Shown here piece by piece: positions 1 through 64,000 of a stretch of 64,000 nucleotides of DNA. The translations under genes and the position numbers were made by a program. Origin of the DNA: an uncultured Alphaproteobacteria bacterium (GTDB lineage: Bacteria; Pseudomonadota; Alphaproteobacteria; Rhizobiales; Xanthobacteraceae); the NCBI GenBank assembly GCA_963833665.1, contig CAWHZA010000062.1, forward strand, positions 5,782 through 69,781. The letters are read 5' to 3'. Every line of letters starts with the position of its first letter. Positions within the stretch are counted from its first letter, which is position 1. A model generated the notes under the pieces. It was not told where the DNA came from. It saw nothing but the letters and a program-made list of their open reading frames with translations, and made no database searches.

Positions 1-217
1 TGAGCCCAGCACCTGCTGCGTTTCCGCCGACTGCACCGGCTATCAGTTGGATGATGATATTAATGATCGTGGCTGACATAGCTTACCCCCCTTCGCTTGT
101 AAGGCCGTGGCCACGGATGACCAAGCTACATCCGTTCCGTGGACGTGGGGAGGGGCGCATCTCCTGTGGATAATATGGAGGACAAGAAGTCTAAGGCGAC
201 GATTATGCGCCTGTAGT

Positions 218-583
218 TTATCGTGAAATCGTCGAGTGACTAACGTTGTAGCTCCGACCGATTTCGGCCGGCGGTTCTCCCGCCACCCGTCTCGAGATGG
301 CCTCCGCGCGCTGATGGAGTGTGGGCTTGAGCTTCCTCCCAAATCGGACCCCTCTGGCCTTCGCTCTCCTCCGTCCTTCATCGGTCCTGGCTCGGATCAA
401 CTCCCTTTCGAATTCGGCAAGGCCACCAAGGACGGTCGACACTAATCGGCCATGTGGGGTTGTTGTATCCGCCCAATGGTCTGCGAGTGAGCGGAAGCCC
501 GCCCCGGCCTTCCCAACTGCGTCCATGACGTTCAGCAAGTCCCTGGTTGACCGCGCAAATTCTGTGAGAAATCGATCAACCAT
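218..583 (-). pseudogene. serine recombinase (resolvase/invertase) fragment lacking the N-terminal catalytic region
   Basis: Translation ...GAGFRSLADHWADTTTPHGRLVSTVLGGLAEFERELIRARTDEGRRRAKARG...SYNVSHSTISR matches the conserved core and C-terminal HTH of small serine recombinases. About 60-70 N-terminal residues (catalytic Ser region) are not encoded upstream. Confidence 0.75.
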
Positions 584-1152
584 ATGCTTCCCAGGCCCAC
601 TGCGGTTAGGGCATCAGTCTTGCTGCGACTGCGACAGCGGTCACAAAGACGATGAGGAACTTGAGGGCCAAGGCGTACGAACAATATGGCGGCAACGACG
701 CAGATGCCGAAGACGTAAATGAAAGCCAGCGACGACCACGACGACGCTCGCTGCCAGCATGAGCATTTCGGGGAAATACAGCTTCAACATGGGTACCCTC
801 ATAGTACCCGACACCGATGGACAGTCTGAGCGGGAACCACGACGCGATTATGAACCTGGAACCCAGGCGCGCGGCTGCTAAGCGTCAACCGCATGACCTC
901 TGAGGGCCCCTAGCGTGGCCGGAGTTGCCGCTCAGGACATCCAAGCACCGGCTCAAACGGCACGGCGGGCTGTCGCAAGAACTGCCAGACGTGACGCAGC
1001 CGCCAAGGTTCGACACTCTGCTTGCCTCTTAAAGGATTGCGCCCATCGGCCATGCAGCGAACTACGACCTATCAGTTTGAGGCTAGACAGCGCTCCCAGA
1101 TACCCCCTAAGTTTCCCCTTTGGGGCGCATCCGCACCGATGGGGAGGGGCAG

Positions 1153-1770
1153 ATGTGGAAGCAGGCGGGCGTTGGCGAGCGTGTCCTTGTGGTTCCCGTA
1201 GCCTGTGCGGTGGTCTTGCTTACGATCACCGCTGCCACGGCGGACCCGAAGGCGATTGTCGTACTCTCTAGCTTGCATAATTTAGACTATGCCGAAGCGG
1301 CGTGCAGTCGCCTGCGTAGCATAGCCGACATAAAAGACATTACCGAGGTCCTGAACAACGCATCCGACTACGACCCGGAGGATGTCAAATTCAACAAGCA
1401 AGAGTTCGACGGGATTTCGGAATGCAAATCAGTGAAGGACCCGCGCGAACTCGGGCGGCGTCTCGAAGACAGCATCATGGACCAGTTTGCTGTGAACACG
1501 CGCTGTGGGGGCGTGGCACCTTACATCGAAGGTTACGACAAATTTGACGGCAAATTTAACGCGGTGGCGATGCAAGCTGAGGAGCGGAATGACTATTGGG
1601 GGCTGATGGTCGACTACGCCCCGGGAAGCAAAGTCTATAGCTGGGCGCTGTTCCCGACGGCGCGCAGTGGGCGACCAAATGGTCGGATGATCTCCGGTGA
1701 GGGCGCCGCTTCTCAGATCGCAGAGCAAGTCTGCATCGTTGTTACAGGGCGAGGCGCTAGTGTGCGCTGA
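1153..1770 (+). CDS. hypothetical exported protein
   Basis: ATG at 1153 preceded by GGGGAGGGG. N-terminus MWKQAGVGERVLVVPVACAVVLLTITAATA looks like a signal peptide. No family recognised. Confidence 0.5.
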   Translation: MWKQAGVGERVLVVPVACAVVLLTITAATADPKAIVVLSSLHNLDYAEAACSRLRSIADIKDITEVLNNASDYDPEDVKFNKQEFDGISECKSVKDPRELGRRLEDSIMDQFAVNTRCGGVAPYIEGYDKFDGKFNAVAMQAEERNDYWGLMVDYAPGSKVYSWALFPTARSGRPNGRMISGEGAASQIAEQVCIVVTGRGASVR

Positions 1771-3645
1771 TACAAGCGTTTTTCAGAAGCTCGCATTGCT
1801 GATGTCAGCCGAGCCTACGGCAAAGGCTTTTACTCGCCTTTATTGAAACCTCTCGGAAATGAACCACCCCGGTGTCATGCATCCGGGCGCTGTGAGGCGT
1901 ATGCCCAAGGCTCTAAGGGCGAAGACAAACCATCCAGGGAGGGACGCTACCTGGCGCGGCACCGTTTTCAAACTTACTCACCGCGATCCTCGGTTTGAGC
2001 AATTGGCGACCTTGTGAATCCCGGAGGTCTCGCGCAAATGTTTGCCCGTCGGCGGTTGACATTTCGCATCCCAGCCTGAGTCGAGGGTCCACTGCCAACT
2101 GGATAGATAGTATTTAACGCCGCAGGTCCGACACCGACACGAAAGCTCGGGGCGCCGATCTGCATCTAGGGAGAATTTCCACTCCCACCGGCAACCGTTG
2201 TCGTCCGTTGCACGCTTCTGTTCGTCGATCGGTTGCTGCCAATATTGAGGTTCACGAGGTTCTGATATGGCATGCCGCCGGCGCATTAATGGAGTTCCGA
2301 TCTGCGGCTGGTGATGCAACGACTCATACCCAAGCCTAGCTTGGGGTCTTTTTTTGCGGCAAGGGGCATTTTCGGGGACAACCAACAATTTCTGACGAGT
2401 GTTGCCGTGAGGAAACACTCCTACCCAATTACCCGTTGTGCTGAAGCTGATCACCCCGCGACTTCCCTCAAAAACAGACGTTTACTCCTTCTTCTCTTTC
2501 AACGTCGAGGTCATGCGGGCGTCGGTGCCACGACGATGGCCAGATCGAGGCTGTCTTCGCGCGGCTTGCCAAGCCGGTGACTGCGCCAGGGAGGTGCGTG
2601 GGTGAGCCAGTTCAGCGCCGTGTCTGAAGGAGTGCGGAGGGCAATCTCAAGCTCCCCACAGCGTGTCATTTGTTTTGCGCCTCTCCTGGAAGGCCATCTC
2701 TCTTAAAGCCACTGTCCGGGGCTTTCTACCGGTGCGGCCTTCGCGGACTGGCTTCCGCCGATCTTTTTGACGAGCGACTAGACTAAGGTAGCGGCGTCAC
2801 TCCAGGTGCGCGTGATTTCTTGGCTCTTAGAGAGTACATCCGGCTTCAGTACATTTACTCACAACGCTGTTAAGTATGAGTTGATGGTATTTTAATTTCT
2901 CTATGAACCCCCAAGCCGCAAGATCAAGGTAGTAGATCACTCGCAATTCGTCTGCGTTGTCCGCCATATTAGCAGCGACTCCCCCCGCGTACCTGCCGTA
3001 TGCAAATCGGCATGAACTGCGTCGAATTTAAAAGCCAACTCGATCAGGCAATCCGGCGAGTGCGCCACAGGTTATTTTGGTTATGAGTTCATAAGGATCG
3101 TCTCCAATGGAAAGCATTTTCAGATCGGGATCGTGGAAAGCCCTGATAATCAGCAATTGTCAGGACGCTGGCAACTGCTGATGCCCGAGGAAAGAGCAGC
3201 GAAGCCAAAAGAAACGAGGGCACGAAGGTAGCGCATGATGGGCTCCCGTGCGGGGGTTGCAGGCACAAATAGGGCTACTGGTCACTACTCATAGGCGCAT
3301 CCAAGAACACAATCGTGGAAACGCAATTCGTCCGCGAGCCGTTGATGCGTCTTTCGAAGAAAGTCGTTGCGGCGCTCAGCAGCCAAGATGTGCAGCAAAC
3401 AATCTGGCTCCCGCGATTTGTGCATCTTGTGTTCACGCGAAGACCCCGGCACCTGACGACCTGCTGGCGCGGATGGCTCGCCGTGGAGCCACTCTGGCAA
3501 CGATGTCGTCGCGCTTGATCGATCATACCGTCCAAGGTCGCGGGCCATGCGCCGCTCATTTATCGTCGCGCGGTCTGCGAGGTTGGCCGCCCCGAGAAAG
3601 CCACGAACGTGTTTAATTTTGGATTCACTGTCGGGGGGTTGGGGA

Positions 3646-62807: not shown

Positions 62808-62940
62808 CCGTCAACCACCCGTCGGCCCCGTTCGGCAGGCGCTCGTCGGCCCGAAGGCAGCGAGCCCGGCTCCCCGTGCAGCGATCCGCCGGGCGTCTGC
62901 CGCGAACAAGGGTGAACAGCGACCAGCCCAGAGGTATTCC

Positions 62941-63727
62941 GTGCGCTCCGACACCGCCCGCCAGGCCGTCACCGTCCTGGCATTCCTCCTCACGATCGCC
63001 CTCAATACCGCCGCCACCACGATCCCGCTCGGCGGGCAGGCGACCAACGTGATCAGCGACAGCTTCCACGTGCTACGTGATCCCCGCGGGCTACGTGTTC
63101 GCCATCTGGGGGCTGATCTACACGCTGCTCGGCGCGTTCACGGTCTGGCAGGCGCTGCCCCGAAGCCGAGCGGAGGCGGTCCTCCGCGACCTCGGATGGC
63201 TGCCGGCCCTGAGCGGCGCGCTCAACTCGGTCTGGATCGTCCTGTTCCAGTACCGCGTCTTCGTGCTCACCGTGCCGGTGATCGTGGCCCTGCTGGTCAC
63301 GCTCATCGCGATCCACTTCCGGCTGTGGGCCCACCGGACCGCGCTGCGGGGCCGCGCCTACTGGCTCGTCCGCGCGCCGTGGTCCGTGTACCTGGGCTGG
63401 ATCACCGTGGCCACCATCGCCAACGTCGCGCAGACGCTCTCGTCGCTCGGCTTCGACGGCTTCGGCATCGAGCCCGCCCTGATCGCGGCTTGTGTCCTGC
63501 TCCTCGGGCTCGCGATCGCGGCACGGTTCGTCGGGCGGTTCGGCGACGCCGCGTACGGCTGGGTGATCGTCTGGGCCTACGCAGGCGTGGCTGTGAAGGA
63601 GTGGGCCACCCCGCTGGTGGCAGGCACCGCGCTCGCGGGCGCGCTGCTGGTCGCTGTGCTGGTCGTGGCCGCGATCCTCGGCCGTCGATCCGCGAGGGGT
63701 CCGCGCGGCAGTGCTGCGACGGCCTGA
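62941..63727 (+). pseudogene. TspO/MBR-like tryptophan-rich membrane protein, frameshifted near the N-terminus
   Basis: MRSDTARQAVTVLAFLLTIALNTAATTIPLGGQATNVISDSFHV, then after a shift near 63075 IPAGYVFAIWGLIYTLLGAFTVWQALP...APWSVYLGWITVATIANV. Confidence 0.5.
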
Positions 63728-63804
63728 CGATCGGTACGGCGGCGGCGCCGGGCCGCGGCATCCCCGTGCGGGCGGCTTCCGGCCCATCGCGCTAGCCTGA
63801 GGGC

Positions 63805-64000
63805 ATGACCTCGCGAACGTCGCGCCTCGCGCCGGCTCGCCGTGACGCTCACGGCCGCCGCGATCGCGTTGGCGGGCTGCGCTGCGGGCGCCCCGACACC
63901 CTCGGTGATCATGCTCGACCCCAGCGCCACCCCGGCGCCGATCGGCGTCCGCGACACCGCGTACGACCCGCCCAGGCCGGAGCCGCCACTCCGGCTGACC
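63805..64000 (+). pseudogene. possible SCO/SenC-type lipoprotein, partial at the window end and frameshifted
   Basis: MTSRTSRLAP..., then in the next frame LAVTLTAAAIALAGCAAGAPTPSVIMLDPSATPAPIGVRDTAYDPPRPEPPLRLT (lipobox LAGC). Only the N-terminus is visible, so the family call is weak. Confidence 0.3.

What the first reader, a model, noticed from the sequence alone, without database searches (positions are those of the whole stretch)
1..64000. Frameshifted genes are very unevenly distributed across the window
At least 15 genes need one or more 1-nt shifts to give a family-typical protein:
- DUF4157 gene
- IS630 transposase
- yidB-like gene (four or more shifts in about 560 bp)
- glsB-like gene (two shifts in 260 bp)
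- an ABC_sub_bind gene (three or more shifts)
- iorB
- the beta-propeller-like gene
- a prophage gene
- the cyclase
- the IS3-interrupted ORF
- nearly every gene from 57.5 kb to the end

By contrast, about 20 kb of core operons (31-52 kb) shows a single shift. The IS110, IS3 and LivK-type genes inside the messy region are also clean. Uniform sequencing error would not give this pattern.

Low-coverage or mixed-population assembly could give it, and at least one shift sits in homopolymer runs (G4A5 at 27584-27592). So the choice is between genuine, regionally concentrated gene decay and coverage-dependent consensus errors.
Basis: partly seen in the sequence, partly recalled or inferred. Interest (0 to 1): 0.6.

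Follow-up and report, generated by a model that had tools for sequence, protein, structure and literature searches.

The report
Assembly errors, not decaying genes
The clustered broken genes are really in the deposited sequence, but they are almost certainly consensus errors of a long-read metagenome assembly, so this is a data-quality warning and not gene decay.

Summary
The frameshifts are real in the deposited sequence, and their uneven spread is highly significant (chi-square p = 5e-32).

There are two hot zones:
- 12.4-18.0 kb: about 5 indels per kb.
- 57.57-64.4 kb: at least 1.2 frameshifts per kb.

All other tested stretches have 0.05-0.65 per kb.

Independent public assemblies of the same loci decide the cause:
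- Contig_75901 is collinear over 18 kb. Its eCIS_core/DUF4157, IS630, YidB, Transgly_assoc and ABC_sub_bind genes are intact.
- That contig has its own breaks in IS110 and iorB, which are fine or nearly fine here.
- In the hot zone, mismatches to indels run 2:1, against at least 5-15:1 in natural divergence.
- The hot-zone proteins occur on a single contig in the whole collection, so the segment is rare and probably thinly covered.
- Three insertions around iorB double the A/T of GANTC, a nanopore methylation-error signature. The same signature is enriched genome-wide.
- At 57,570/57,571 the contig switches into Limnocylindria-like (Chloroflexota) DNA. Five other assemblies continue collinearly past this point, so it is a chimeric end.

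This scan has found the same artefact in other genomes.

Verdict: not a real biological feature.

The parts
12401..18007 (.). Hot zone 1. Against contig_75901 there are about 33 indel events, 30 of them frame-disrupting. Most are private to the window.
   Evidence: In 12.4-17 kb there are 50 mismatches against 25 indel events; the hot-zone proteins occur on only one contig in the collection.
13182..14254 (+). eCIS_core (DUF4157) gene, broken in the window at 13204 (-2), 13861 (+1), 14162 (-1) and 14187 (+1). It is an intact 355 aa in contig_75901.
   Evidence: Pfam profile positions 32-78 of 79 only.
14367..15254 (+). IS630-type DDE_3 transposase. Three 1-nt insertions (14385, 14419, 14510) scramble the N-terminus. 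It is 293 aa in contig_75901.
   Evidence: The insertion at 14510 is private to the window against four other copies.
15742..16370 (-). YidB-like gene with five indels (15770, 15869, 15941, 16047, 16110). It is an intact 208 aa in contig_75901.
16480..16809 (+). Transgly_assoc (GlsB/YeaQ-like) gene with indels at 16589, 16625, 16735, 16741 and 16777. It is an intact 109 aa in contig_75901.
16824..17801 (-). ABC_sub_bind gene, a divergent allele. It has frame-breaking indels at 17126, 17382, 17442 and 17493, no in-frame stop, and mostly third-position divergence.
18460..20902 (-). iorB (MoCoBD). One private insertion at 19559 turns GAGTC into GAAGTC. The gene is an intact 813 aa in three other assemblies.
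20899..21393 (-). iorA (Fer2). A private insertion at 20904 lies inside a GACTC site at the 3' end of the gene, 1-2 nt before the iorB start codon.
22748..22754 (.). Intergenic private insertion at 22751 (GAC[T]TC) upstream of the LivK-type gene.
39731..42975 (-). Adenylate/guanylate cyclase-AAA_16 gene. It carries the only frameshift in the 31-52 kb core: a +1 insertion near 42405-42412 relative to three relatives in the same genus.
57570..57571 (.). Seam. Five other assemblies are 99.5-99.9% identical up to 57570 and then continue into a 79-aa gene and an ECF sigma gene. The window instead switches into 73% GC DNA, which begins inside a PALP gene.
57571..64000 (.). Hot zone 2. A Limnocylindria-like (Chloroflexota) block that runs to the contig end. 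PALP is truncated. Frameshifts: CtaG 1 (about 59045), redoxin 1 (about 60720), ABC_tran at least 2 (61.27-61.69 kb), SCO1 3 (63.9-64.4 kb). COX3 and ABC2_membrane are intact.

Best explanation
The window comes from a long-read-only, most likely Oxford Nanopore, metagenome-assembled genome. Its consensus still carries 1-2-nt indel errors.

**How error density varies**
- It appears to track local read support. Depth itself could not be measured.
- Segments shared by many strains or copies in the community are nearly clean. These are the core operons, the OtsA-MFS island, the LivK-iorAB cassette and the AH-IS3-PEMT stretch.
- What remains in those segments is mostly systematic error at the CcrM-type GANTC methylation motif, where the methylated A or T is doubled.
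- A rare, strain-specific segment (12.4-18 kb) is inferred to be thinly covered. It carries about 5 random indels per kb.

**The contig end**
- At 57,570/57,571 the contig is wrongly joined to DNA of a Limnocylindria-like Chloroflexota organism.
- That terminal piece is also inferred to be poorly supported, and it is riddled with frameshifts.

**Consequence**
- The broken genes should be read as intact in the organisms.

**Status of each claim**
- Shown: the indels are private to this assembly, and the same genes are intact elsewhere.
- Shown: the seam is unique to this assembly.
- Shown: the GANTC signature is present.
- Inferred: low read depth is the cause, and the platform is Nanopore.
For: **1. 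An independent assembly has the broken genes intact**
- ERZ25039558 contig_75901 is collinear with window 1-18,007.
- It has intact eCIS_core (355 aa), DDE_3 (293), YidB (208), Transgly_assoc (109) and ABC_sub_bind (325).
- Its IS110 is split, while the window's is intact.
- Its iorB has 11 private 1-nt indels, against one in the window's iorB.
- So the two assemblies break at different places.

**2. Private indels sit in the long-read assemblies**
- Over 1-9.2 kb, 10 other contigs align at 97.5% identity or better, nine of them at 98.5% or better.
- The window has only two private 1-nt indels there (2925, 7081).
- The contigs with Flye-style names carry 0-7 private 1-nt indels each. The two MEGAHIT-style k141 contigs carry 0-1.

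**3. The indel ratio does not fit natural divergence**
- In 12.4-17 kb there are 50 mismatches against 25 indel events, 23 of them not multiples of 3.
- Under natural substitution-to-indel ratios of 5:1 to 15:1, P = 3e-4 to 2e-12.
- 13 of 18 1-nt indels are not in homopolymers.

**4. No sign of relaxed selection**
- The ABC_sub_bind allele differs from its homologue at codon positions 1/2/3 by 60/41/124 mismatches, with 0 in-frame stops.
- The foreign block has at least 7 frameshifts. The only 2 stops lie in doubtful alignment stretches.

**5. The hot-zone segment is rare**
- Exact YidB and eCIS_core proteins occur on one contig in the whole collection.
- Proteins of the clean segments occur in 33-248 index blocks.

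**6. The GANTC signature is present**
- All 3 private insertions in 18.2-22.8 kb double the A/T of GANTC.
- Genome-wide, GAANTC/GANTTC lies within 10 nt of 12.5% of predicted frameshifts, against 4.5% of random coding sites (p = 2e-19). Five control motifs show no enrichment.
- 10% of 1-nt indels between near-identical repeats are GANTC<->GAANTC/GANTTC.
- Motif-linked consensus errors are established for Nanopore (PMC6591954).

**7. The whole genome is affected**
- There are 795 robust predicted frameshifts in 8.04 Mb (0.99 per 10 kb).
- A finished genome of the same family gives 0.15-0.43 per 10 kb. Detector sensitivity is about 43%.
- The density is similar at all GC levels.
- It is 1.6-fold higher in contig-terminal bins (p = 3e-9).
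- It is 5-9 per 10 kb in terminal 73% GC blocks, against 1.3 in an internal one.

**8. The seam is unique to this contig**
- Five assemblies are collinear to exactly 57,570 and then continue differently.
- The block beyond is syntenic with Limnocylindria-like contigs.
Against: - No reads or depth could be examined (look-up of sequencing runs closed). Low coverage is inferred only from how rare the segment is in public assemblies.
It is inferred from Flye-style names of sister assemblies and from the error signature.
- Only one independent contig covers 12.4-18 kb. Most of those indels are polarised by gene integrity alone. A second sequence polarises only 12496, 13175 and 14510 inside that zone, and 11190 just outside it.
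- In the 18.2-22.8 kb block taken alone, the mismatch-to-indel ratio against other strains (54:3) is natural-looking.
- The region does contain real structural decay: IS insertions, truncated ABC_sub_bind and group II intron fragments. A few genuine pseudogenes cannot be excluded.
- The cyclase shift cannot be polarised.
- No Nanopore adapter was found at the seam.
Confidence: 0.88

Rival explanations
1. Genuine, regionally concentrated gene decay. The window's strain has really accumulated frameshifts in an accessory island rich in mobile elements, while its core operons remain under selection.
For: - The region is full of IS110, IS5-like, IS630 and IS3 elements and truncated gene remnants.
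- Some of that structural damage is real and shared with other assemblies, for example the IS3 insertion and the ABC_sub_bind fragment.
- Accessory DNA is where pseudogenes normally collect.
Against: - A collinear independent assembly has all five hot-zone genes intact. Its flanking 10 kb is about 99.8% identical.
- The ratio of 25 indels to 50 substitutions does not fit neutral decay.
- There are no in-frame stops, and the codon-position pattern of ABC_sub_bind shows purifying selection.
- The other assembly has its own dense frameshift cluster in a different gene.
- The whole genome, including core-like GC classes, shows excess frameshifts.
Confidence: 0.05
2. Mixed-population (collapsed-strain) consensus, and not low depth as such. 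Reads from several 80-99% similar strains or paralogous copies were piled onto one contig, and polishing produced a mosaic consensus with spurious indels.
For: - The bin is 8.0 Mb, against 3.2-6.7 Mb for relatives in the same genus.
- 5.6% of it lies in duplicates of at least 98% identity.
- The PEMT block occurs twice, on C62 and C51.
- Several alleles of the LivK-iorAB and ABC_sub_bind genes co-occur in the same samples.
- Frameshift density is somewhat higher in duplicated bins: 1.22 against 0.89 per 10 kb.
Against: - The hottest zone is the segment that is rarest in the collection, not the most shared.
- Widely shared, multi-allelic segments (1-9.2 kb, 18.2-22.8 kb) are comparatively clean.
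- This is a variant of the artefact explanation, and the two causes may act together.
Confidence: 0.25
3. The 73% GC block is a real horizontal transfer from a Chloroflexota donor into this alphaproteobacterium, and it is now decaying.
For: - Similar high-GC blocks occur on three other contigs (C31, C39, C58), and the one on C58 is internal.
- The block is contiguous with alphaproteobacterial DNA in the deposited contig.
Against: - The junction cuts a gene on each side.
- It is absent from five other assemblies, which are 99.5-99.9% identical up to the exact junction base.
- The block runs to the contig end, with no alphaproteobacterial DNA on the far side.
- Terminal high-GC blocks have 4-6 times the frameshift density of the internal one.
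- There are at least 7 frameshifts and essentially no nonsense codons, at 82-90% protein identity to extant relatives for the well-conserved genes.
Confidence: 0.04

Closest known systems
Gene-fragmenting indel errors in long-read (Nanopore) assemblies and MAGs, as measured by the IDEEL test (Sereika et al. 2022, PMC9262707)
   Same: - 1-nt indels split otherwise conserved genes.
- Their frequency depends on coverage. That paper finds near-finished quality only at about 40-fold or more.
- They are private to one assembly.
   Different: - Here the error density changes about 100-fold between adjacent segments of one contig.
- I attribute this to how many strains or copies share each segment. 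Depth itself was not measured.
Methylation-motif consensus errors in Nanopore data (Dcm CCWGG errors, Wick et al. 2019, PMC6591954)
   Same: - Residual consensus errors concentrate at a short methylated motif, independently of homopolymers.
   Different: - The motif here is GANTC, the CcrM-type 6mA site of Alphaproteobacteria.
- The error is a doubling of the A or T, which gives a +1 frameshift.
- It explains only about 10% of the frameshifts genome-wide.
Chimeric contigs in metagenome assemblies
   Same: - There is an abrupt switch of phylum-level affinity, GC content and synteny at one base.
- The switch cuts genes on both sides.
- It is absent from other assemblies of the same population.
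   Different: - No adapter sequence was found at the junction, so the mechanism stays open: a chimeric read or a graph mis-join.
- The junction coincides with the end of a 981-bp segment duplicated on C51.
Genuinely pseudogene-rich genomes (for example Mycobacterium leprae, or recently host-restricted symbionts; from general knowledge)
   Same: - Many frameshifted genes together with many IS elements.
   Different: - In real decay the lesions are shared by independent sequences of the lineage. They include nonsense codons and deletions and come with relaxed selection.
- None of these holds here.

Membership tests
Long-read consensus indel errors | The indels are private to one assembly, and the same genes are intact in independent assemblies of the same locus. 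| tested here: met
   - iorB.
- eCIS_core, DDE_3, YidB, Transgly_assoc, ABC_sub_bind.
- Reciprocal breaks in contig_75901: IS110 and iorB.
Long-read consensus indel errors | The ratio of indels to substitutions is far above that of natural divergence, and indels are not confined to homopolymers. | tested here: met
   - 25 indels to 50 mismatches in 12.4-17 kb (P <= 3e-4).
- 13 of 18 1-nt indels lie outside homopolymers.
- about half of the 1616 indels between repeats are non-homopolymer.
Long-read consensus indel errors | Genome-wide excess of frameshifts, including in core-type genes, relative to a finished relative. | tested here: met
   - 0.99 against 0.15-0.43 robust predictions per 10 kb, at all GC levels.
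Long-read consensus indel errors | Read pile-ups do not support the indels, and depth is low where the indels are dense. | not testable with these tools
- Only a proxy was available: the rarity of the segment in public assemblies.
GANTC methylation-motif Nanopore errors | The inserted base doubles the A or T of GANTC. | tested here: met
   - 3 of 3 insertions in 18.2-22.8 kb.
- IS3 copies.
- 2.8-fold enrichment, p = 2e-19, with control motifs flat.
- 10% of indels between repeats.
GANTC methylation-motif Nanopore errors | The genome was sequenced as native DNA on Nanopore, and the organism methylates GANTC. | not tested
   - The platform is inferred from Flye-style contig names of sister ENA assemblies and from the error signature.
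- CcrM is widespread in Alphaproteobacteria (general knowledge). It was not searched for in this genome.
Genuine pseudogene decay | The lesions are reproducible in independent sequences of the same lineage. | tested here: not met
Genuine pseudogene decay | Nonsense codons and relaxed selection accompany the frameshifts. | tested here: not met
   - 0 stops, with codon-position mismatches of 60/41/124.
- at least 7 frameshifts, with only 2 stops, both in doubtful alignment stretches.
- Two possible in-frame stops elsewhere (3030, 16167) were not resolved.
Chimeric metagenome contig | The junction is unique to this assembly, other assemblies continue collinearly, and genes are cut on both sides. 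| tested here: met
   - five assemblies, with identity ending exactly at 57,570 inside a 79-aa gene.
- PALP starts at residue 28-48.
Chimeric metagenome contig | The taxonomic affinity switches at the junction. | tested here: met
   - Xanthobacteraceae-type hits upstream.
- the closest named COX3 hits are Candidatus Limnocylindrales, with 8-gene synteny to L062/L063.
- GC rises from 0.60 to 0.73.

The most novel reading that the evidence does not exclude
The 73% GC Limnocylindria-like cytochrome-oxidase biogenesis block would be a genuine, very recent inter-phylum transfer into one Xanthobacteraceae strain. Both it and the 12.4-18 kb island would then be undergoing unusually fast, indel-dominated inactivation in vivo.
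Probability: 0.03. Interest if true: 0.5.

Novelty: not a real feature. Interest (0 to 1): 0.08.

Why it matters
The result matters as a caution and not as biology.

- Gene calls, pseudogene counts and 'decay' inferences from this genome would be wrong without read-level polishing. The same probably holds for sister long-read soil MAGs.
- About 16 kb at the end of this contig belongs to another phylum.
- Similar terminal blocks on C31 and C39 may also be foreign.
- The pattern gives a practical rule. In such MAGs, error density follows how rare a segment is in the community. GANTC-linked +1 insertions remain even in well-supported parts.

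Tried and rejected
- **Codon-usage HMM frameshift caller:** useful genome-wide. It is insensitive in low-GC accessory DNA and unreliable in the 73% GC block. It also called one true gene boundary (38351) as a shift, which Pfam corrected.
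- **Family-wide DNA search with window 1-16 kb:** returned only IS elements and OtsA/MFS, so it did not help to locate shifts.
- **Pfam on ORFs of 25-30 kb:** no hits. The prophage, beta-propeller and G4A5 claims stay unverified.
- **OtsA homologue search:** gave no long near-identical contigs.
- **Scan for in-frame stops by tblastn with all ORFs:** too noisy, because wrong-frame ORFs in GC-rich DNA align to each other. It was replaced by targeted checks.
- **Homopolymer hypothesis:** rejected as the main cause. The homopolymer distribution at predicted shift sites is close to background.
- **GANTC as the sole cause:** rejected. It explains about 10% genome-wide and 3 of 18 1-nt indels in the hot zone.
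- **Nanopore ligation-adapter search at the seam:** no match.
- **Linking the ERZ accessions to the Microflora Danica long-read study (PMC12313526):** failed, because no supplements are held. The provenance stays an inference.
- **Last Python script:** it filtered out L086 by mistake. The comparison was redone with DNA alignment.

Full report
**Setting**

The window is C62:5782-69781 of an 8.04-Mb, 85-contig genome. Protein hits place it in Xanthobacteraceae, and all close relatives are MAGs.

GC content by region:

| Region | GC |
|---|---|
| 1-31 kb | about 0.58-0.61 |
| 31-52 kb | 0.61-0.70 |
| 58 kb to the contig end | 0.73 |

Everything below therefore rests on sequence comparison.

Yes. 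Paralogues in the same genome, laid on the window by tblastn, switch frame collinearly at about 20 places in 1-31 kb. In 31-52 kb they do so only once, near 42.4 kb.

Pfam confirms partial, consecutive profile matches for:
- eCIS_core/DUF4157
- YidB
- Transgly_assoc
- three ABC_sub_bind pieces
- FecR
- a resolvase fragment

The core shift lies in a Guanylate_cyc-AAA_16 gene. It is a +1 insertion relative to three relatives in the same genus. A second core 'shift' called by my HMM at 38351 is a true gene boundary between a CoA-transferase and a periplasmic binding protein.

In the high-GC block, proteins from two syntenic contigs show the following:
- Frameshifted: CtaG (1 shift), redoxin (1), ABC_tran (at least 2), SCO1 (3).
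- Truncated: PALP.
- Intact: COX3 and ABC2_membrane.

**Where exactly are the lesions?**

Exact-protein look-ups found independent public assemblies of the same loci.

Counts of window-private or frame-breaking indels per kb:

| Segment | Indels per kb |
|---|---|
| 1-9.2 kb | 0.22 |
| 9.2-12.4 kb | 0.63 |
| 12.4-18.0 kb | 5.4 |
| 18.2-22.8 kb | 0.65 |
| 31-50.8 kb | 0.05 |
| 50.8-57.57 kb | 0.15 |
| 57.57-64.4 kb | at least 1.2 |

The heterogeneity is overwhelming (chi-square 160, p = 5e-32). The unevenness is therefore real.

**Hot zone 1 (12.4-18 kb)**

ERZ25039558 contig_75901 is collinear with window 1-18,007. Over the first 10 kb the two differ by only about 2 mismatches per kb.

In that contig the following genes are intact:
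- eCIS_core (355 aa)
- DDE_3 (293 aa)
- YidB (208 aa)
- Transgly_assoc (109 aa)
- ABC_sub_bind (325 aa)

The converse also holds. Its IS110 transposase is split (208 + 138 aa) where the window has an intact 374-aa ORF. Its iorB carries 11 private 1-nt indels where the window has one. Two assemblies of syntenic DNA, each with a dense frameshift cluster that is clean in the other, is what assembly error predicts. Inherited decay does not predict it.

Further points on this zone:
- In 12.4-17 kb the two differ by 50 mismatches and 25 indel events. 23 are not multiples of three, and 15 are insertions and 10 deletions in the window.
- With natural substitution-to-indel ratios of 5:1 to 15:1 this has P = 3e-4 to 2e-12.
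- 13 of 18 1-nt indels are outside homopolymers.
- Where a third sequence exists, it sides against the window: 11190, 12496, 13175 and 14510.
- The window's ABC_sub_bind is a divergent allele, about 80% identical. Its differences fall 60/41/124 on codon positions 1/2/3, and it has no in-frame stop. It evolved under purifying selection.

**Why there?**

The exact YidB and eCIS_core proteins of contig_75901 occur on that one contig only in the whole collection.

Proteins of the clean segments are listed in many index blocks:

| Protein | Index blocks |
|---|---|
| Rap1a-like | 90 |
| MFS | 44 |
| PEMT | 33 |
| ORF at 26.4 kb | 248 |

The LivK-type protein has more than 50 variants at 97-99% identity.

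The hot zone is therefore a rare, strain-specific arrangement. The flanking IS copies and cassettes are shared by many strains or copies. I infer that read support differs accordingly. This step is an inference and was not shown.

**Error signature**

- All three window-private insertions in the 18.2-22.8 kb cassette double the A or T of GANTC: GAC[T]TC twice and G[A]ACT once.
- The same signature appears between IS3 copies. Three copies carry three different 1-nt insertions within 5 nt of one GACTC site.
- Genome-wide, GAANTC/GANTTC lies within 10 nt of 12.5% of predicted frameshifts, against 4.5% of random coding sites. Five control motifs are flat (p = 2e-19).
- 10% of 1-nt indels between near-identical repeats are GANTC<->GAANTC/GANTTC.
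- Motif-linked residual consensus errors are well documented for Nanopore (PMC6591954). Coverage-dependent gene truncation in Nanopore MAGs is documented in PMC9262707.
- I reached the GANTC reading before consulting earlier notes of this scan. Those notes report the same artefact in other genomes.

**Genome-wide context**

I built a codon-usage HMM that allows frame switches.
- It predicts 795 robust frameshifts in 8.04 Mb, or 0.99 per 10 kb.
- In 400 kb of a finished genome of the same family it predicts 0.15-0.43 per 10 kb.
- It recovers about 43% of simulated indels.
- The excess is present at every GC level.
- It is 1.6-fold higher within 10 kb of contig ends (p = 3e-9). It stays 1.5-fold higher after removing the high-GC blocks.
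- About 45 sites share one sequence. They probably reflect a multi-copy IS with a programmed frameshift.

**Hot zone 2 and the seam**

- Five other assemblies are 99.5-99.9% identical to the window from 50.8 kb to exactly 57,570. They then continue into a 79-aa gene and an ECF sigma factor.
- The window instead continues with 73% GC DNA that starts inside a PALP gene.
- The closest named COX3 relatives are Candidatus Limnocylindrales, not Actinobacteria as the first-stage notes supposed. Eight genes are syntenic with two such contigs.
- The block runs to the contig end.
- It has at least 7 frameshifts and essentially no nonsense codons.
- Two more terminal 73% GC blocks, at the start of C31 and the end of C39, have 5-9 predicted shifts per 10 kb. 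An internal high-GC block on C58 has 1.3.
- I conclude that this is a chimeric, poorly supported contig end.
- No Nanopore adapter was found at the junction.

**What remains open**

- A few lesions could be genuine: the cyclase shift, 2925, 7081, and possible in-frame stops at 3030 and 16167.
- The region does hold real structural decay that is shared with other assemblies, namely the IS3 insertion and truncated gene fragments.
- The relative weight of low depth against strain collapse cannot be settled without reads.
- The bin looks strain-mixed. It is 8.0 Mb against 3.2-6.7 Mb in the genus, 5.6% of it lies in duplicates of at least 98% identity, and the PEMT block is present twice.

**Verdict**

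- Chimeric assembly is an added cause.
- This is not a biological feature.

Noticed in passing
G000 contigs C31:1-32500 and C39:207500-223857: There are two more contig-terminal blocks of about 73% GC, with 5-9 predicted frameshifts per 10 kb. They are probably further chimeric ends like the one on C62. An internal high-GC block at C58:75-90 kb has normal density.
   Followed up: partly
genome-wide: About 40-48 predicted frameshift sites share one sequence, with enriched k-mers GGTGGAAAAGGGGGG and AGCGTAAC. This is probably a multi-copy IS with a programmed ribosomal frameshift, that is, real frameshifts among the artefacts.
   Followed up: no
window 54182-55445 and its copies on C38, C28, C85, C40, C3, C76, C45: The IS3-family element is present in at least 10 copies. 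The copies differ by private 1-nt indels about as often as by substitutions. Three copies carry three different insertions within 5 nt of one GACTC site (54464-54468).
   Followed up: partly
whole genome G000; window 56590-57570 versus C51:121073-122053: The bin looks strain-mixed. It is 8.0 Mb, against 3.2-6.7 Mb for the genus. 5.6% of it lies in duplicates of at least 98% identity. The PEMT block is present twice in different contexts.
   Followed up: partly
window 1-9215: The resolvase-OtsA-MFS-Rap1a-like-FecR island recurs at 97.5% identity or better on at least 10 public contigs. Their contexts diverge at 9215, where the window and contig_75901 carry an IS110. It behaves as a mobile or recombining cassette.
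   Followed up: partly
window 18194-22788: The LivK-iorA-iorB cassette (4.6 kb) is 98.7% identical in three other assemblies, but there it sits in unrelated flanks. The left boundary at 18193/18194 truncates an ABC_sub_bind gene.
   Followed up: partly
window 21446-22640 (LivK-type protein): The window's protein has two residues (L108, K363) where all 50 or so closest homologues have V and E. These may be substitution errors of the consensus.
   Followed up: no
L086 (ERZ25039558 contig_75901), iorB: This sister assembly carries a divergent iorB allele, roughly 92-93% identical by eye. It has 11 private 1-nt indels, so public sister assemblies have their own error hot zones.
   Followed up: yes
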